In this document: positions 12,622 to 23,614 of the stretch, piece by piece | How positions within the stretch are numbered: position 1 is the stretch's first letter | Layout: every line of letters starts with the position of its first letter | DNA from: Neophaeotheca triangularis | Lineage: Eukaryota | Assembly: GCA_054600435.1 (NCBI GenBank) | Contig: BAAIJX010000025.1 | Location: forward strand, 62,001 to 126,000 | Direction of reading: 5' to 3' | Length of the DNA stretch: 64,000 bases | Notes under the pieces: generated by a model | Told to the model about the DNA's origin: nothing | The model's input: the letters and a program-made list of their open reading frames with translations, nothing else | Database searches by the model: none | Translations under genes and position numbers: made by a program

Positions 12622-15600
12622 TCACGCCGACCCACCATTACCACTCCCACTCGCAGCACCAGGCTTAGGCTTGTACTCCTCCTTCAACGACCACGTAGCC
12701 CTGGCGCCGCTCCTCCCCCTCTCCATGACCGCAATCGTCTTCAACATCTCCGTAAACTCGGCCTGCCGCGCCTTATCCGTACCAACAATGTGATTGAAGT
12801 GATCGATCAGCATTTGCGTAAACACCTTGCCATTATGAGCAAGCAAGTAGTCGCGGATCAGAGCCAGGAAATCTTTGCCACGCGGTTGGTTCTGTTGGTT
12901 CTGTTGCTGCTGTCGGGAGGGCGTGCCAGTGCGGCTGCTACCTCTGGGCGTGTTGGTACCAGAACTACCGCGTCCGCTATGCCTGGCTTGCAGATTGGCG
13001 AGCACGGCGGTTGAAGAGGGGCCGGCGGCGTTACCACGGCCGCGCATGCTGCTGCCGCCACGCACGCCACCGAGGCCGCCGCGTCTGGGTGGTGGTGAGG
13101 CGGGACGACCTGCCGTGCCCCTTTCGCCTGTCCAGGTGGGAACACCGGGCTCGATGGTTCTGGCCACTTCGCCGGCGCGCTTGAGTTCGCGAGCGGCTTC
13201 GGCTGCTACGCGTTTGGCTTCACGTTGGATGGCGGCGGGATCAGCTTGGTAGCGCTTCTTACCGTTGTTGACGGTAGGGTCAAAGATGGCGTCGTGCTCT
13301 ACTGCGCTTGAGACGCCGGAGCGTGCGAAGATGGATGACAACATCCGGCTGTCGTTTACAGCTGACTCTTTGGCCTTCTCTTGCTGTTCCTCTTCATCTG
13401 TGCCTTGATAGTGCTCCTGGCGGGCAATGCCTACCATGTTACCGATAGCGCCAGACTCCCTCTCGGTCTCGTTATCCCCAGGTGGTGTCGGGAGACTCTC
13501 CTGGCGCTGTTTGCTGTCAGGCTGATTGGCCTTGCCAGTGAGCTCGACACGAGAATTCTGGAAGATGCTGCTTGTTTCAGTTTCGCCATCATCTCTTTCA
13601 CCACCTAGAGTGAAGAGATCGTGCAGATCTTTGAGCTGGAAGGTCTGGCGTTGCTTCGGGTCCTTGAGTACTTTGTTGGAAAGGAATTGTTTGAAGATTT
13701 GACGATGAAATATTTTCTCCTCAATAGTACCCGCAGTCATGAGTCTGTAGATGTTGACCTCACGCTTCTGCCCAAGACGCCAAGCTCGCTCACGTGCTTG
13801 AGCATCAGTGGATGGGTTCCAGTCTGGGTCGTAGATGATGACACGATCCGCACCAGTCAAGTTGACGCCCAGACCACCTACTTTTGTTGTGAGCAAGAAG
13901 ATATGCATGTCGGGATCGTTATTGAACTGGTCCACAAGGTCTTGACGGTTCTTGATCGACGTGTTACCGTCCATACGGAGATAGTTGATGCCTTTGAGTC
14001 CTTGGATGAACTTCTCCAATATGTCAAGCATGATGCGATGTTGGGCGAAGAGCAGCGTTTTATGACCCTGCTGCTTCCACATGCCAAGAAGCTCCTTAAC
14101 GACCTGCATCTTGCCGGACTTGACACCACTGCCATAGTTGTAGCCCTCTTTGCCGGACAACAGCTTGTGCTCTGCCAAATCTGGATGATTGCAGATCTTG
14201 CGAAGAATGTCGATACCGAACAGCGAATTACGCTTGCCATCGAGAATGGCTTTCATGTCATCTGATCCAAGGAAGGTCTGGTATGCGTCTCTTTGAGGCT
14301 TCGTGAGGTTGCAAAACAGTACCTGTTCGGTCTTCTTCGGCAAGTCAGAAGCGACGTCGACCTTGAAGCGCTGCAACAAGTACGGGCTGATGGCTTCCTT
14401 GAGAGTCTCTGCAGTATGCGCTGCGCTCTCTATTTGCAGGTTCGAAGCGTTTCCGTATCCACCTTGCTTGATCGGAATCTCAAATTGCGTCTTGAAACTG
14501 GTCAGCGTTCCAAGGCGCATGGGATAGACAAAGTCGAAAAGGGACCAAAGCTCGGTCAGGTTGTTCTGCATCGGCGTGCCCGAAAGAATGATGCGGTTAT
14601 GAGTCTTAAGCTCCTTGCAGAACTGAGTGAGATCAGTATGTGGGTTACGTATCTTGTGGCCCTCGTCAAGCACCGCATACTCCCATTTGGCAGGTATCAG
14701 GAGCTCGGCATACGTTTGGAGACCGGAGTACGTGGTGACGAGGATGTGACCGTCTTTGATTACCTTGTTGACAATGCGCGATGCCGACTTGTGGCTTTTG
14801 CCTAGCCTTTGGGTGCTGCGGTGAGACGTCTCATCCAAATCATCTTCAATCGCCGCCTCTCGCGATACGTTCAGCATGCCGCTCCCCGAGGTGTGCAGAA
14901 TTGACACCCGAAGTGGTGGCCACCAACGATGGAACTCATTGACCCACTGCTTCATCACCGTAGCAGGCGTGACAACGATGATTGGCTTGGTAAGCTTCTT
15001 GGAGTAGTGCAGACCCGCGAGGAAAGCAATAATTTGAATTGTTTTACCCAGGCCCATCTCGTCACCGATGATACCGCCGACTTGTTGCGCGTATAGCTCA
15101 CCCAGCCATTGGACACCGGTCTTCTGGTAGTCGAAGAGTGATGGGTATATGTCACCGGGCACTCGAAGCCCATTCTCGAGCACTGCGTCTGGCCTGTTCG
15201 GATGAGGCATCTGCCATTCCTCATTCGGGATTTCTTCGAAGCCGTTAGCATCGAGAACTGGTTGGATGGTGTTGCTTTCCTCTTCTTCTTCTTCTTCATT
15301 GGCAGACTGTTGACGCTCAAGCTGACGCTTTCTCGCAGCACTCCTTCTCTCCACCCAGCTCTGTAATCTGTTTTGATATACGCGCTCATTGCCATCATCT
15401 ATACCAGCAAGGTCTTCTTCCTTCGCAGCCTTCGCAACTGCTTTGGCCTTCTTGCTATGCGCTTTACCCTGCCGCTTGGGTGGGGGGGCAGTGTCCAGCG
15501 AGAAATCGCCTTCTTCCGCGTCCGCATCGCTATCCTCCAACTCGTCCGCAGAATGACCGATAGCAGTGAGACCGTCCTCGTCAACCTCTGGCGTGTAAGC

Positions 15601-16626
15601 TGCGTCGGTGCTGTCTGCGGGAGTCCCTACATCGGAGGAAGCGGCTTCTGCTTGCTGTCGTGTGCGCAGTCGGCGTCGCTTCGCGGGTCTCGCCGAAGCA
15701 TTTTCCTCGTCTTGAAGCTGTCGCGCAATCCTCGCATCAGCGTCGCTCTCATCTGTCTCCGTTACTGTTTCACCGATATTCGTGGACGCTCTCTGCGCCT
15801 CCTCGCGACCGGTAGCTCTGCGTCTTTTTGCGGGCCTCTCCTGCTCTTGTAGCTTTCGCGCGAGCCTTGCGTCGGCGTCGGTGCCGGCTTCTTCTTCGCT
15901 TTCCTCTTGTTCGAAGCCGGGCGCGAGTAAATTCCTGTGCGACATCGGGCCAGCTGTGCTTGCGTCCTTATCAACCTGGTCTTCCGTATTCTCCTCAAGT
16001 TCCGCATCCATAAGCGCATTTCCCAAGCTGGACTCCGAATTTAGGAGATGTTGTCCGAACTTCGAGAACGGTGTGATCTTGCCCGTTCTAATCAAGAAAT
16101 CCCTCTGGCTTTCTCCCGGCTGGCGCTTATTGGCAGATTCGTCCAAGAGGGTATCGCCGTTCTGCGCCTCCGCGGTTTGAGCCCTTTCCTCCATGCGCGC
16201 AGTGATCTGAGATATGTCGGTATCGAATGTCTCGATCTGCGCCTTGTAGTGCTGAATCTCGTTTCTATATCCATTCTTGGTCGCATGATTCCCGAACTCA
16301 GTAAGCTTCTTCTCGAGTTGACGTATCATGCCTTGCAGTCGAGCCTTGTCCTTCTGCGCCTTGTCCAGGCGCTTTTGATCCCGCTCGTCCGCCTGCTGGA
16401 GAAGCATCGCATCTGCCTGGCGACCTATGTCCCGCTCGAGGTCATCTTGGTCGCGCACCCCAGCAAGCGCGGCGACTGTGGCTTCTTCACTCTGGTTGGG
16501 TGTGTTGACTTTCTCCTCGCTCGCGGCAGGTCTCGAATCCTCCATAACAGTGACCATGCTTCCTTCGGCAGGGTCATTACCCTTTTGCATCTCTTCAACA
16601 TGCTTTGAGTTTGCAGTGTCGGCCAT
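12622..16626 (-). CDS. RAD26: Snf2-family transcription-coupled repair ATPase Rad26/CSB, 1334 aa, single exon
   Basis: RDFLIRTGKITPF, GGIIGDEMGLGKT, LDEGHKIRN, KVGGLGVNLTGADRV, QARERAWRLGQ, PTWTG motifs. Confidence 0.95.
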   Translation of the reverse strand: MADTANSKHVEEMQKGNDPAEGSMVTVMEDSRPAASEEKVNTPNQSEEATVAALAGVRDQDDLERDIGRQADAMLLQQADERDQKRLDKAQKDKARLQGMIRQLEKKLTEFGNHATKNGYRNEIQHYKAQIETFDTDISQITARMEERAQTAEAQNGDTLLDESANKRQPGESQRDFLIRTGKITPFSKFGQHLLNSESSLGNALMDAELEENTEDQVDKDASTAGPMSHRNLLAPGFEQEESEEEAGTDADARLARKLQEQERPAKRRRATGREEAQRASTNIGETVTETDESDADARIARQLQDEENASARPAKRRRLRTRQQAEAASSDVGTPADSTDAAYTPEVDEDGLTAIGHSADELEDSDADAEEGDFSLDTAPPPKRQGKAHSKKAKAVAKAAKEEDLAGIDDGNERVYQNRLQSWVERRSAARKRQLERQQSANEEEEEEESNTIQPVLDANGFEEIPNEEWQMPHPNRPDAVLENGLRVPGDIYPSLFDYQKTGVQWLGELYAQQVGGIIGDEMGLGKTIQIIAFLAGLHYSKKLTKPIIVVTPATVMKQWVNEFHRWWPPLRVSILHTSGSGMLNVSREAAIEDDLDETSHRSTQRLGKSHKSASRIVNKVIKDGHILVTTYSGLQTYAELLIPAKWEYAVLDEGHKIRNPHTDLTQFCKELKTHNRIILSGTPMQNNLTELWSLFDFVYPMRLGTLTSFKTQFEIPIKQGGYGNASNLQIESAAHTAETLKEAISPYLLQRFKVDVASDLPKKTEQVLFCNLTKPQRDAYQTFLGSDDMKAILDGKRNSLFGIDILRKICNHPDLAEHKLLSGKEGYNYGSGVKSGKMQVVKELLGMWKQQGHKTLLFAQHRIMLDILEKFIQGLKGINYLRMDGNTSIKNRQDLVDQFNNDPDMHIFLLTTKVGGLGVNLTGADRVIIYDPDWNPSTDAQARERAWRLGQKREVNIYRLMTAGTIEEKIFHRQIFKQFLSNKVLKDPKQRQTFQLKDLHDLFTLGGERDDGETETSSIFQNSRVELTGKANQPDSKQRQESLPTPPGDNETERESGAIGNMVGIARQEHYQGTDEEEQQEKAKESAVNDSRMLSSIFARSGVSSAVEHDAIFDPTVNNGKKRYQADPAAIQREAKRVAAEAARELKRAGEVARTIEPGVPTWTGERGTAGRPASPPPRRGGLGGVRGGSSMRGRGNAAGPSSTAVLANLQARHSGRGSSGTNTPRGSSRTGTPSRQQQQNQQNQPRGKDFLALIRDYLLAHNGKVFTQMLIDHFNHIVGTDKARQAEFTEMLKTIAVMERGRSGARATWSLKEEYKPKPGAASGSGNGGSA

Positions 16627-17711: not shown

Positions 17712-18410
17712 TCATCCAAGCCCTCTCCCTCTGCCTCTCGTACCGACACTTGTCCCTCTTCCTATTCCTGAGCCTCTCGCACTGCTTGTAGGAGTGCTCC
17801 TCCCTCTCATCGTGCCCGACGCCCCAAGCCTTCCAGCGGTTGAGCCAGCCCTCGTACCTCTTCCTCTCGCTCTTGTTCCGGTCTTGGGCCCCTCCACCGC
17901 TTTCCGCCTCTCCTCCTCGTCCGCCCTCCTAGCCGCTTCTTCCCGTCGTCGCTCCTCCTCTCTGGTCCTTCTCTCACTCTCCTGTTGCTTTCTTAGCTCC
18001 TCATTCTCCACATCCTCCACATCCTGGGTCGCGCCCTGCCAGTTCGGGTTCAAGATCAAGCGCTGGTTGTGCTCTGTTTGACTGAGGATTCGGGTCCAGG
18101 TTGCCAGGAGAGTCGAGGCATTGTCCACGGCCTGATGCACTGTGCCCATGTTGTCTTTTGCTTTCGTGAGAGAGGCTGTAACACCTTCGATGGTTTTGTT
18201 GACTTCTTTCACTCGCTCGAGCTCGGCGCGCAAACGTGCTTCACGGGTTGTAGTGTCGTTCTGCTGGCTTTGAACTTTATGGTTCGGGTTGGAAGTTGAC
18301 GTGGTTTGTGGGGTGTGTTTCTGCGTAGTTGCAGGACTGGAGAAGAGGTCTTCCGTATCGTCTTCCAGACTTAGCTTGCCCAAGTCAGGCGCGTCGGTTT
18401 GTTTCGACAT
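17712..18410 (-). CDS. DUO1: DASH/Dam1 kinetochore complex subunit Duo1
   Basis: LRAELERVKEVNKTIEGV..ASTLLATWTRILSQTEHNQRLILNPNWQGA, followed by an E/R coiled coil and RG-rich tail. Confidence 0.9.
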   Translation of the reverse strand: MSKQTDAPDLGKLSLEDDTEDLFSSPATTQKHTPQTTSTSNPNHKVQSQQNDTTTREARLRAELERVKEVNKTIEGVTASLTKAKDNMGTVHQAVDNASTLLATWTRILSQTEHNQRLILNPNWQGATQDVEDVENEELRKQQESERRTREEERRREEAARRADEEERRKAVEGPKTGTRARGRGTRAGSTAGRLGASGTMRGRSTPTSSARGSGIGRGTSVGTRGRGRGLG

Positions 18411-19184
18411 GGTTGGCGCAAAATATCGTCGCTTGTCCGTAGTCCACGCGACTGGCAGGAAATGGTCACAGTCGGGTGGCCTTATTTGTTGATAGTAGTC
18501 CAGTGGTAGACGCGCCTTGTCGTTTGTCGCGCGTCAAAGTGAATTGGTCTCAGGGTCCAGAAAAGTGGAACCAGAAAGTGCCCAAACAAGGCCTACCAGC
18601 CACTTTGATGCGCCCCGGGCTTCGGGACGACAGCATCCACCGTCCTTATCCCAACCTCCTCCTAACTTTACTTCGTCCATGCATCATACTGCCACTGTCG
18701 CAACGGTCAAACATCATTGACCCTGTTGCTACTATTGCTGCCTTTGCCATTCGATCCTTTCCTCGCTCTTCTGCCGCTGTCGCGCAAGACTATACGACTC
18801 CCCCATCGAGCGCGCCGAGCACACCGCTTCTGTTTGGCAACAACAACATCAACATCAACAGAGCCAAACACCGCATACCTCCTTGCTTCGCGCAATACTT
18901 TCCAAAGAAAGCTCCATAAGTCTATCCAGGGGCTTGATACCGCCAGACTGCATCGTCCGGTGCATTGGATCTCATCTTATCCTGCGCCAGGAATATCGCA
19001 ACGGAACGGTGGGAAGCCTGGCAAAAGGCATTGTTGCAAAGGCAGTCGAGTGAGGAGTGAACGTGGCGCATAGCCTACGTATTTACAAGATCGATTGAAG
19101 CTTCACATCGCACGCAGTGAAGTTGGATAGTGAACTCCAAGCCATCGCAACCTCACTACACCAACAAAGATAGCTAGAGCCAAG

Positions 19185-20721
19185 ATGCCCGCAACACCAG
19201 AGCCAACTCGCCTTCGCACACCTCCACCTCCGCTGCATGGTGCACAACACGATACCTTTGAGCCCTACTCCCCTCGACGCTCGACAAGAAGTACCGCGCA
19301 AAGGAACCCGTACAGTTCCAAGAACGCTGATCGTTCGCCTCGAAAAGCTCACTTGGACCGAGCTACCACCCCTCCACCTACGTCCAAGCGCCCACGCTTC
19401 GCCAGCTTCTCTACTCACCTCTCTTCTCCACCGATCTCACCACCTTCTGCCAACGAACACCGCGCTGCCGCAGAGTCTCCGCCTCTTCCCGCGAAGACAC
19501 CGAGGAAGGCGCTATTCACGTCCGCGAAATCCAAAGATCACGGCGCTTTAGGCGACATTGATAGCGGATCGGCTTCACTCGCAACGCCTGCCTCAGCAGT
19601 GCGAAACATGTTTCCAACCCCTGTCAAAACACCCAACAAACGCCAGCGCACGGCTATCAATCCAACTGCGCGCATTTTGAACTTCCAACCAGGTCATCAT
19701 CGCGCGAACGATTTGATGCCAACTCCACGCAAGATCAAGAAGACTTCACGCACTCAGACCGAGGGTTTCGAGCTGTACGACGACGACCAGGAGTTGAAGG
19801 GCCAGGACAAGATTGAAATCTTCACCGATACCAAGGATAGAATCCCTACGATGGACGGAGCTGACGACAACCCTTTCGTCGGCGCCCGACCCGCTACGCC
19901 ACCACCAGCACCCAGGAAGGTGAAGAAGAAGTCGCGAGACCAGATTCAAGAAGAGGAAGCAATGGACGAATCAGTGCGCAAGGAGGAAGGCATCACGTAT
20001 ATTTTGTAAGTGAAGTCCACCAATTCTCCCACCTCACAGATCAAGTCGACTGACATTCTCTTCTTACAGCCGAGGCCGCAAAATATTCCGCCGCTTTACC
20101 GACCCCGATGAAGACGCAGACACGGAAGTCGACTCCAACCCAGGCCAGCAATCCCTGAAACACCAAGCCGGCAGCGTCGCGCAGCGCCCCCTCACTCGCA
20201 GCGCCGTGAGACCTCGTCTTCTTTTCCCAACCGAAGAGCAACTGCGCGCTCGCGCCGAAGCGGACATGGTGGACGAGGAAGCCACTACTGATATCGAGAT
20301 GACGGATTCGGAGCAGGTCCAAAGCAGCACTGTCAACAAGAAGACGAGGGTGGAGATGACACCGATGAAGTATGCTCGTGGCGGCGACACAAAGCTCGTC
20401 ACGCCGCCTCCCACCAAGACTCCCAACAAGCGCGCGACGAGGTCCACGAGGAAGGGCGTTAGCGCTGAGCCGACTTCGCCGCTCCCGGGTAAGCTGCCGG
20501 CTGTGGAGGAGGACGAGGAGGAAACCGGGGGAGAAGACTGTGATGTTGGTGGTGGCGATGAGACGCCTGTGCCTGCTGGTGAGGAGAAAAAGATCTCCCC
20601 CTTTGCTGGATGGCAGCGCACCAAAGGAAGCAGTGCGGGGGGCAAGAAGCGTCCGGCGGCGGGGGATGAATCGACCCGGGCTAAAAAGAGCCGCTCGGCT
20701 GTCGTTGGCGGTCTTTTGTAA
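19185..20721 (+). CDS. Probable Rum1/Sic1-like CDK inhibitor, 490 aa; exons 19185-20005 and 20070-20721
   Basis: Intron GTAAGT..CTGAC..CAG joins GITYIF|RGRKIFRRF; also FPTPVKTPNK, DNPF and VRPRLLF motifs and many S/T-P sites. CDS confidence is high, function is moderate. Confidence 0.75.
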
Positions 20722-21267: not shown

Positions 21268-22201
21268 TCAAGTAGTCACGCCCTTGGCCATCTGGCTCCA
21301 TTCGACATCCGCAACCCAGTAGCCGTAGCCTTCCGCAGCGAGAATGTCCTTGAGGAACTTCCAGTCGTACTTCCACGACCAAAGCGTGTCTACGTCGATG
21401 CAGGCGCAGAACGTGCCGCCGGTGCAGTAGGTCGGCGACGCCCTCATGCTGATGACGTGGGGATGGACGACGCCGACGGGAGGCGCCATGCCCTCGCTGT
21501 AGCCCCACTCATCGATGCGCTCCTCACCGTCGCGGCCTGCGAGGTAGCGGTCGATGGCCACTTGGGTCGCGGGCTTGACTGGGGGCATGGGCGTGGCGAC
21601 GTAGGCCTGTTTGGTAAATGGGCTATCGTCGGTGCTGTTAGTCATCGTTGCTTCGGAGTCTACGGCGGGTTTCGCATTGTTCGCGGACTTGAAGACGGGT
21701 TTCTTCTTCACGCCGCCTGCGGCTTTGGGCTCGAGCGACATGGGTTTCATCTGCCCGTCGTTGTCGTCGCGGCGGTTGGCGCTTTGCATCTGGGTGCGGA
21801 ACTTCCGGCTGTCTTGCTCGCGCTGCGGGTGGGTGTTGTTAGAGAAGTTTTCGTTTGCAACGTTTGAGATCGATTGTGTCAACTTACCACGTTGTGCGTG
21901 TGCTCGTAGCCTGAGAGGTGGGCATCGTATTCGACGACGCGAGCGTAGCCCTTGTTGCAGACGTCGCCTGTATAGACAGATGTTGTTAGCATGTTCATTT
22001 GAGCCAAGCGTCGTTGAGAGCAGATTAGGAGGGATTCGAGGCAGCGGTCCTGAGAAAGATGGGTTCAACTTACAATGGAAAGCTTGACGGGCTTGACGGG
22101 CGCTTTCGGTGGTGGCATCGGGGAGCTTGCCTGGGCGCTGAGAGGAGACTTAGTATGGTGTCGAATCGGTTGGAGGGGAGGCAGGAACTTACGGGAGGCA
22201 T
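21268..22201 (-). CDS. Single C2H2 zinc-finger protein (GPATCH8/ZNF804-type finger), 235 aa; exons 22201-22193, 22137-22074, 21967-21888, 21822-21268
   Basis: Spliced MPP|RPGKLPDATTESARQARQAFH|CDVCNKGYARVVEYDAHLSGYEHTHNV|REQDSRK; three GTAAGT..CAG introns keep the frame. Confidence 0.8.
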
Positions 22202-22681: not shown

Positions 22682-23614
22682 ATGGCGACCGACCACTCAT
22701 CCTCGTTCCGTCTGGAAGAGCTGGAACCCTCGCCCGTCGAGGAAACACCCCCGAACTCATACCAAAAGGAATACTTTCCATCATCCCACGGCGCCGCCTC
22801 GACCCCCGGGCCCTCTCGCCCAAACCAACCAGGCCTCTCCTCCCACAGTCCCATCTGGTACCTCACACGCATCCAGAAATACAGCAGCTACGTCTTCACC
22901 GCCTTCGGTGTCGCTCACATGACCAACACCTCGCTCCTCCCACTCATAACCCAATCCGTCCCGACCTCCGAACCCTACCTCCTCCTGACCCGACCCTACT
23001 ACCAAGGAATCCCCGCTGAACCGCTCTTGATCATCGCCCCGCTTGCAGCACACATAGCGTCCGGGCTCGCGCTACACATCTACCGGCGGAATTTGAACGC
23101 CAAACGCTACGGCGCGGAGACAAGGGCGGACAAGAAACGCTTCTCAGCAAAGTTCTGGCCAAACGTCAGTGGGATCAGCAAGCTGGGCTTCTTGTTCACG
23201 CCGCTCTTGTTGGGACACACGTTCATCAACCGCGGTATCCCGAAGCAGTTCCCCGGTGGGAGTTCGAATATCAATCTCAGCTATGTGAGCCATGCTTTTG
23301 CTAGGCATCCTGCTGTTTCTTGGGTGGGGTTTACCGCGTTGATTGGGGTGGGTGTGTGGCATATGACTTGGGGCTGGGCGAAGTGGTTGGGATGGACACC
23401 TGAGCAGGCTACCAGCGGGCATGGCAGTGTGGATAGGGGCTTGGCCATGAAGAGGCGGTGGTATGTTATCAACGGGATTGCCGCGGCGGTTGCTGGGCTG
23501 TGGATGGCGGGTGGTTTAGGTGTCATTGGGAGAGGTGGGCCCGCGAGTGGTTTCACGGGTAGGGAGTATGACGAGATGTATAGGCGTATTCCTTTGGTCG
23601 GTCGGTGGATGTAA
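22682..23614 (+). CDS. Mcp1/DUF1691-like mitochondrial outer-membrane protein, 310 aa
   Basis: RIQKYSSYVFTAFGVAHMTNT..LLTRPYYQ..AHIASG and further His-bearing TM helices. Confidence 0.78.
   Translation: MATDHSSSFRLEELEPSPVEETPPNSYQKEYFPSSHGAASTPGPSRPNQPGLSSHSPIWYLTRIQKYSSYVFTAFGVAHMTNTSLLPLITQSVPTSEPYLLLTRPYYQGIPAEPLLIIAPLAAHIASGLALHIYRRNLNAKRYGAETRADKKRFSAKFWPNVSGISKLGFLFTPLLLGHTFINRGIPKQFPGGSSNINLSYVSHAFARHPAVSWVGFTALIGVGVWHMTWGWAKWLGWTPEQATSGHGSVDRGLAMKRRWYVINGIAAAVAGLWMAGGLGVIGRGGPASGFTGREYDEMYRRIPLVGRWM

What the first reader, a model, noticed from the sequence alone, without database searches (positions are those of the whole stretch)
19185..20721. Rum1/Sic1-like CDK inhibitor whose diagnostic motif is split by an intron
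Seen: splicing 20006-20069 fuses two low-complexity ORFs into a 490-aa disordered protein. It carries, in order, FPTPVKTPNK, DDNPFV, GITYIF|RGRKIFRRF and VRPRLLFP, plus many S/T-P-x-K/R CDK sites. Established, from memory: the same ordered motifs mark the inhibitory region of S. pombe Rum1 (PTPAKTPKK, NPF, YVFRGKRIKK, KPKLLF), and NPF / ITY / KPKALF occur in the Sic1 C-terminus. Inference: this is the filamentous-fungal G1 CDK inhibitor, a type of gene likely to be left as 'hypothetical protein'.
Basis: partly seen in the sequence, partly recalled or inferred. Interest (0 to 1): 0.72.

Follow-up and report, generated by a model that had tools for sequence, protein, structure and literature searches.

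The report
Mould orthologue of CDK inhibitor Rum1
This unannotated fungal gene is very probably the mould counterpart of Rum1, the protein that holds fission yeast cells in G1 by blocking their cell-division kinase, and it offers a named candidate for that brake in filamentous fungi.

Summary
The gene is real. Exons 19185-20005 and 20070-20721 give 490 aa, identical to an NCBI model called 'hypothetical protein'. It belongs to a Pezizomycotina family with no Pfam match (860 representatives); the same intron sits in the same codon in 42 of 64 related loci. No Rum1 or Sic1 sequence was retrieved, so the motif match remains recall. Two other tests support it. (1) Synteny: the upstream neighbour is DUO1, head-to-head, as in 31 of 38 related loci with enough flank; S. 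pombe duo1 and rum1 are the consecutive genes SPBC32F12.08c and .09. (2) A model of residues 205-352 with the genome's own cyclin B scored ipSAE 0.63 against 0.00 for the best control, with RLLF in the cyclin hydrophobic patch. A conserved TPxKTP matches the spacing of Rum1 T58/T62. Inhibition, Cdk1 contact and splicing in this organism are not shown. The intron does not explain the missing annotation. Verdict: Rum1 orthologue about 0.9, working CDK inhibitor about 0.78. No paper naming it in 10 searches; one relevant review was unreadable. The scan's index held no earlier finding on it.

The parts
19185..20005 (+). Exon 1 (aa 1-273 and two bases of the Phe274 codon): Pro/Thr/Ser-rich disordered region with 6 of the 8 full CDK sites
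20006..20069 (+). 64-nt phase-2 GT-AG intron inside the Phe274 codon; branch site CTGAC at 20050-20054
   Evidence: same codon and phase in 42 of 64 related loci
20070..20721 (+). Exon 2 (last base of Phe274 to the stop)
19608..19640 (+). aa 142-152, T145-P-x-K-T149-P: paired CDK sites four residues apart, candidate phosphodegron; most conserved block (mean top-residue share 0.86)
   Evidence: (85 of 89); Rum1 T58/T62 spacing from PMC7195536; degron role inferred
19662..19685 (+). aa 160-167, conserved R-x-L-(x)-F: candidate substrate-type cyclin docking site beside the degron
   Evidence: R163 96%, L165 95%, F167 95% of 105 rows; role inferred
19812..19877 (+). aa 210-231, IFTD...RxP...NPF block; aa 228-233 touch cyclin B in the model
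   Evidence: (N[PV]F in 89 of 89)
19965..20097 (+). aa 261-283, end of the helix and beta-hairpin G-x-x-Y-x-F-R-G-K/R (spans the intron); aa 270-274 and 278-281 touch cyclin B in the model
20185..20229 (+). aa 313-327, RPLTRSxxxPRLLFP: RxLF docked in the cyclin hydrophobic patch in the model
   Evidence: (81 of 89)
20272..20298 (+). aa 342-350, conserved acidic DEEAxTDIE block, role unknown
   Evidence: (77 of 89)
20596..20718 (+). aa 450-490, conserved SPFxxWxRTK block and basic KR...KR tail (candidate bipartite nuclear localisation signal)
   Evidence: (70 and 84 of 89); NLS inferred
17712..18410 (-). DUO1, DASH/Dam1 kinetochore complex subunit, head-to-head neighbour
   Evidence: PF08651 E 1.1e-29
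18411..19184 (.). 774-nt shared upstream region of the divergent pair (candidate bidirectional promoter)
   Evidence: arrangement; promoter motifs inconclusive

Best explanation
The gene is the single-copy Pezizomycotina orthologue of S. pombe rum1 and encodes a disordered, stoichiometric inhibitor of B-cyclin-Cdk1. Shown: the gene model, the family, the conserved blocks, the DUO1 synteny. Predicted: residues 228-328 wrap the cyclin, with R323-L325-F326 in the hydrophobic patch and the NPF and hairpin on the neighbouring surface, which would block substrate docking. Inferred from Rum1 and Sic1: the complex also blocks the kinase and keeps CDK low in G1; CDK phosphorylation of the N-terminal T-P sites, above all T145 and T149, marks the protein for SCF (Cdc4/Pop1-type) ubiquitylation and release at G1/S; the basic tail takes it to the nucleus.
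For: Synteny: Duo1 lies divergently upstream in the window and in 31 of 38 related loci with at least 2 kb of upstream DNA, 18 of 21 groups at 85% DNA identity, all 33 Duo1 matches on the opposite strand. S. pombe duo1 is SPBC32F12.08c (PMC2193660, PMC4700965) and rum1 is SPBC32F12.09 (supplement of PMC1157095). The Rum1 idea came before this check; a named gene being the neighbour by chance is of the order of 1 in several thousand (my estimate). Complex model: ipSAE 0.63, 0.63, 0.61; best of 3 controls 0.00; the mark was reached by 51 of 78 solved and 2 of 108 mismatched microbial pairs, 71 of 105 solved and 2 of 126 unrelated eukaryotic pairs; runs agree in at least 80% of contacts; partner pLDDT at least 52. 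Best contacts join R323-F326 to cyclin M48, I51, L52, W55, L88, L91, Q92, A120, D121, which I recall as the RxL groove. TPx[KER]TP in 85 of 89 members has the spacing of Rum1 T58/T62. CDK sites enriched: median 5 against 1.5 expected in 70 full-length members. Disorder with a short folded patch fits the CDK-inhibitor class (PMC7139818, PMC3504315 passages). One copy in the genome, beside one Cdk1 and two B-type cyclins.
Against: No Rum1, Sic1 or other yeast-named sequence appeared in three word searches, the best 150 of 860 profile hits (710 not shown, and only 27 of the 150 were looked up by name), Pfam, NCBIfam, PDB sequences, Foldseek or the ESM Atlas. The motif match therefore rests on recall. 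The S. pombe adjacency and orientation are read from systematic names, not from sequence. RxLF docking is shared by many CDK substrates; RxL-cyclin complexes are solved, so the pass may come from memory; disordered partners were not in the calibration; my alignments were not used; Cdk1 was not in the model. The protein is about twice the recalled length of Rum1 and has two conserved C-terminal blocks with no counterpart that I could test. 7 of 38 loci (3 of 21 groups) lack Duo1 upstream.
Confidence: 0.78

Rival explanations
1. True Rum1 orthologue whose role has drifted: it docks on cyclin B as a substrate, adaptor or nuclear-import factor and inhibits weakly or not at all, as multinucleate hyphae may control G1 differently.
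For: Only cyclin docking was modelled. Long added regions and two extra conserved blocks. No functional paper found in 10 searches.
Against: NPF, hairpin and RxLF are all kept across at least four classes, and all three contact the cyclin in the model: more surface than a substrate needs. The paired CDK sites are kept too.
Confidence: 0.14
2. An unrelated disordered CDK substrate (Sld2-, Whi5-, securin- or APC-inhibitor-like) whose short motifs resemble Rum1 by convergence.
For: No sequence link was retrieved. The only named Atlas feature hit was Sld2, score 0.76, rank 9, below the level that shuffled proteins often reach.
Against: The genome has its own Sld2 (C11, E 5.5e-53) and three Whi5-motif loci elsewhere. 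No KEN box in 89 members; D-box-like pattern in 20 of 89. Convergence does not explain the shared DUO1 neighbour. Securin and Acm1 were not searched for.
Confidence: 0.06
3. Two chance low-complexity ORFs joined by an invented intron.
For: No RNA across the junction.
Against: Identical public gene model; same intron in 42 of 64 loci; 11 loci read straight through the junction, 5 of them on contigs that also carry Duo1 and so are genomic; 30 of 149 profile hits stop at the intron, as unspliced gene calls would.
Confidence: 0.01

Closest known systems
Rum1 (p25rum1), Schizosaccharomyces pombe, SPBC32F12.09
   Different: 490 aa against about 230 (recalled); extra N-terminal T-P cluster and C-terminal DEEAxTDIE and SPFxxW blocks; a PP2A-B56 LxxIxE pattern in only 31 of 89 members, where Rum1 has two putative sites; inhibition untested.
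Sic1 (p40), Saccharomyces cerevisiae, YLR079W
   Same: Disordered, N-terminal multisite CDK region followed by a short inhibitory region with a helix (aa 215-284; PMC3504315); RXLF docking site near the degrons (PMC7160111); listed as functional orthologue of rum1 with low similarity.
   Different: Sic1's inhibitory domain ends the protein; here about 160 residues follow. No sequence or synteny test against Sic1 was possible.
p27Kip1 / Cip-Kip inhibitors
   Same: Disordered chain that folds on cyclin-CDK and uses an RxLF in the cyclin groove (recalled; class description in PMC7139818).
   Different: No sequence match (no Pfam or PDB hit). In p27 the RxL opens the inhibitory domain (recalled); here it closes the conserved run.

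Membership tests
Rum1/Sic1 fungal CDK inhibitors | Significant sequence or profile match to Rum1 or Sic1 | tested here: inconclusive
   Neither protein was retrieved; the word searches are insensitive and 710 of 860 profile hits were not shown. No pairwise test could be run.
Rum1/Sic1 fungal CDK inhibitors | Orthologous genomic position | tested here: met
   Head-to-head with DUO1 in the window and 31 of 38 loci; S. pombe duo1/rum1 = SPBC32F12.08c/.09, read from names. Met for Rum1 only.
Rum1/Sic1 fungal CDK inhibitors | Intrinsically disordered, with a short region that folds on binding | tested here: met
   AlphaFold2: 271 of 490 residues under pLDDT 50; helix plus hairpin at about 90.
Rum1/Sic1 fungal CDK inhibitors | Clustered CDK sites N-terminal to the inhibitory region, with a paired-site degron | tested here: met
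   8 full sites against 1.6; TPx[KER]TP in 85 of 89. Sequence feature only; phosphorylation and SCF binding not shown.
Rum1/Sic1 fungal CDK inhibitors | Binds a B-type cyclin | tested here: met
   Prediction only: ipSAE 0.63 against best control 0.00; mark reached by 51 of 78 solved and 2 of 108 mismatched pairs. Supports, does not show; may reflect memory of RxL complexes.
Rum1/Sic1 fungal CDK inhibitors | Contacts Cdk1 in a ternary complex | not tested
   The genome's Cdk1 lies in three exons and no whole Cdk1 protein was held.
Rum1/Sic1 fungal CDK inhibitors | Inhibits CDK activity; needed for G1 arrest; degraded through SCF | not testable with these tools
   Needs kinase assays and genetics.
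Rum1/Sic1 fungal CDK inhibitors | Periodic M/G1 transcription (Ace2/Swi5 or forkhead) | tested here: inconclusive
   CCAGC 4.2 per kb in 17 upstream regions against 3.0 in 43 control upstream regions; MCB and forkhead near control level.
Sld2/Drc1 | PF11719 match | tested here: not met
   No match in 89 members; the genome's Sld2 is on C11.
Whi5/Nrm1 | PF08528 motif | tested here: not met
   No match in 89 members; three other loci carry it.
Cip/Kip (p21/p27) | Pfam or PDB sequence match to the Cip/Kip inhibitory domain | tested here: not met

The most novel reading that the evidence does not exclude
Filamentous ascomycetes as a group carry an unrecognised Rum1-type CDK inhibitor, held head-to-head with the kinetochore gene DUO1 since their split from fission yeast. 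It clamps cyclin B with three motifs (NPF, beta-hairpin, C-terminal RxLF) in an order unlike p27, and has added lineage-specific C-terminal modules. Its hundreds of divergent members would give the deep alignment needed to define how Rum1/Sic1-type inhibitors bind, and a candidate G1 brake for spore dormancy and hyphal compartments.
Probability: 0.55. Interest if true: 0.68.

Novelty: new member of a known kind. Interest (0 to 1): 0.55.

Why it matters
G1 CDK inhibitors are well studied in two yeasts, but in the open papers I could search no gene is named for this role in moulds; one Fusarium preprint discusses Sic1 by analogy without naming a gene in the passages seen. This family fills that slot with specific genes, so G1 control in multinucleate hyphae, resting spores and germination becomes testable by ordinary genetics. 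The family profile found no solved structure, so the predicted three-motif grip on cyclin B is a testable model for the inhibitor class. The DUO1 pairing gives a sequence-independent way to trace a disordered protein across fungi. It is not a new kind of system: it is the expected orthologue of a known regulator.

Tried and rejected
Pfam on both exons and on 89 members: nothing meaningful (three single weak hits, E 0.013-0.087). NCBIfam on 4 members: none. PDB by profile: 0 and 5 chance hits at E 0.13. Foldseek on the low-confidence model: none at E <= 0.001. ESM Atlas: hypothetical ascomycete clusters at 0.80-0.86, Sld2 at 0.76: leads only. A word search aimed at 77-247 aa relatives gave 74 hits among 87 candidates, none named Rum1; the four weakest, read in full, are family exon-1 fragments. 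RNA: two metatranscriptome runs with shares 0.13 and 0.05 of the words; three 151-nt contigs at 99% or more lie on or just after the gene, none across the intron: no evidence either way. Promoter: MCB, CCAGC and forkhead words exceeded dinucleotide shuffles in 20 intergenic regions, but 43 control upstream regions gave similar rates (ACGCG 3.1 per kb against 3.9), so I draw nothing from them. Regulated intron retention: the stop right after the donor follows from the GTRAG consensus itself, and relatives without the intron exist, so I reject a special role. 'The intron hides the gene from annotation': rejected, the public model is spliced correctly. Of 64 loci, 11 were left unresolved by my junction patterns; they are counted in the denominator. 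A check of other introns in the intron-less loci returned no output. Cross, Buchler and Skotheim 2011 and a 2024 phosphoproteome paper were not held. The scan's own index gave nothing by sequence or place and one unrelated viral note by words.

Full report
Observation. The frame opens at 19185, an intron of 64 nt (20006-20069; GTAAGT donor, CTGAC branch site 20 nt before the end, TACAG acceptor) interrupts the codon of Phe274, and the frame closes at 20721: 490 aa. The product is identical to NCBI GAB7363050.1, 'hypothetical protein', labelled Neophaeotheca triangularis by the source. It has 8 full CDK sites against 1.6 in 5000 shuffles. It is single-copy by an exon-1 search of the genome. AlphaFold2 calls it mostly disordered, with one confident helix-hairpin at aa 251-282; the intron lies at the hairpin turn. 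RNA across the junction was not found.

Family. A profile of four sequences found 860 representatives at E <= 0.001 among 1.84 billion, 223 at 1e-30. Named members come from Dothideomycetes, Sordariomycetes, Eurotiomycetes, Leotiomycetes and smaller classes (class labels are my recall from genus names); all names are 'hypothetical', 'uncharacterized' or 'unnamed'. No Pfam, NCBIfam or PDB match was found. Conservation is confined to short blocks: TPxKTP (aa 142-152), RxLxF (160-167), IFTD...NPF (210-231), helix-hairpin (261-283), RPLTRS...PRLLFP (313-327), DEEAxTDIE (342-350), SPFxxWxRTK (450-459), with mean top-residue shares of 0.62-0.86 against 0.21-0.38 in the linkers (89 sequences that I chose from the hits as mostly complete).

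The intron. Among 64 metagenome loci, 42 have a GT-AG intron of 46-70 nt in the same codon and phase, 11 read straight through, and 11 were not resolved by my patterns. Five of the read-through loci carry Duo1 on the same contig and are genomic. Thirty of 149 profile hits end exactly where an unspliced reading hits the donor. So the joined reading is the real protein. The intron is old, but nothing suggests a special role, and it is not why the gene is unnamed.

Link to Rum1. The surroundings supplied an independent test. The upstream neighbour on the opposite strand is DUO1 (PF08651, E 1.1e-29). The same divergent pair is present in 31 of 38 loci with at least 2 kb upstream, 18 of 21 groups after collapsing at 85% identity. 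In S. pombe, duo1 is SPBC32F12.08c (PMC2193660 and PMC4700965, passages) and rum1 is SPBC32F12.09 (PMC1157095, supplement rows). Consecutive numbers with the 'c' on the first mean neighbours pointing apart under the naming convention as I recall it; I did not see the S. pombe DNA. Further, Rum1's two main CDK sites are T58 and T62, and phosphorylation sends it to SCF-Pop1/Pop2 (PMC7195536, passages and section 13); the family's most conserved block is a pair of T-P sites with the same spacing (85 of 89).

Binding model. Residues 205-352 were folded with the genome's own B-type cyclin (L002, cyclin domain). ipSAE was 0.63, 0.63 and 0.61; the three controls scored 0.00. The mark was reached by 51 of 78 solved and 2 of 108 mismatched microbial pairs, and by 71 of 105 solved and 2 of 126 unrelated eukaryotic pairs; disordered partners were not calibrated. 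Runs agree in at least 80% of contacts; partner pLDDT is at least 52; the alignments I supplied were not used. The tightest contacts put R323-L324-L325-F326 against cyclin M48, I51, L52, W55, L88, L91, Q92 and A120-D121, the hydrophobic patch by my recall. The NPF (228-233) and hairpin (270-274, 278-281) also touch the cyclin; Y272 packs on cyclin 109-111. RxL-cyclin complexes are solved, so the pass may be from memory; it supports docking and says nothing on inhibition. Cdk1 (three exons) was not in the model.

Mechanism. Most likely a stoichiometric inhibitor of B-cyclin-Cdk1. Predicted: a three-motif grip that fills the substrate-docking groove. Inferred: block of the kinase in G1; multisite CDK phosphorylation of the N-terminal half, helped by the RxLxF at 163-167 as the RXL sites do in Sic1 (PMC7160111, passages); SCF-dependent removal at G1/S; nuclear import by the basic tail. 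I put orthology with Rum1 at about 0.9 and the inhibitor function at about 0.78. Rivals: a drifted orthologue that docks but does not inhibit (0.14); an unrelated CDK substrate (0.06; the genome has separate Sld2 and Whi5-motif genes); artefact (0.01).

What is in print. Ten searches of the open library listed no paper that names a Pezizomycotina Rum1/Sic1 gene; I judged most from listings and abstracts, and two searches were too broad to read through (7,189 and 851 papers, 30 listed each). No paper holds both 'rum1' and 'duo1'. Medina et al. 2016 (PMC4862756; passages and a search of 10 supplements) mentions Sic1 once and Rum1 never. Passages of PMC2895642, PMC6593044, PMC7139818, PMC3504315, PMC13294386, PMC9332457 and bioRxiv 2025.05.01.651613, and supplement passages of PMC3737731, name no such gene. 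Gaps: Cross, Buchler and Skotheim 2011, which I recall discussing the evolution of these inhibitors, was not held; the Sic1 alignment in the supplementary note of PMC7160111 did not turn up in the one file held; bioRxiv supplements are closed; subscription journals and orthology databases were not searched. The link may be recorded there.

Verdict. Observation confirmed; interpretation supported. New member, in fact an unannotated family, of a known kind. A specialist would expect such an orthologue to exist, but naming it, with a synteny anchor and a testable interface, opens G1 control in moulds to direct test. Interest 0.55.

Noticed in passing
window 17712-18410 (-) and L071-L134: DUO1 is head-to-head with the gene in 31 of 38 related loci with enough flank; none of the four other window neighbours tested (SNF2 helicase, MCP1, two unnamed ORFs) matched any of the 64 loci.
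   Followed up: yes
L090, L092, L099, L101, L105: Genomic loci (Duo1 on the same contig) in which the hairpin is encoded without the intron: the intron is absent in some lineage(s).
   Followed up: partly
L094, L108, L124-L126, L129, L130: Family members with no Duo1 match upstream; L123-L132 form one group of close, more divergent sequences that could be second copies or a rearranged lineage.
   Followed up: no
protein P0151: The Pyricularia oryzae member of the family is annotated as uncharacterized protein MGG_02485.
   Followed up: no
window 12622-16626 (-): 1334-aa single-exon SNF2 helicase (PF00176, PF00271); Rad26/CSB-like by my recall.
   Followed up: no
window 22682-23614 (+): MDM10-complementing protein 1 family (PF07950, E 6.2e-41).
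   Followed up: no
window 21268-22149 (-): 293-codon open frame with no Pfam match and a Cys/aromatic-rich end; converges on the gene's 3' end.
   Followed up: no
G000 C21:270314-271270, C33:150238-150618, C1:896597-896974, C2:107608-107991, C26:200018-200968: Cell-cycle core of this genome: three-exon Cdk1, two B-type cyclins, one G1-type cyclin and Pho85; subtype labels are my reading.
   Followed up: partly
G000 C13:337452, C4:570714, C1:767202: Three loci carry the Whi5 motif PF08528.
   Followed up: no
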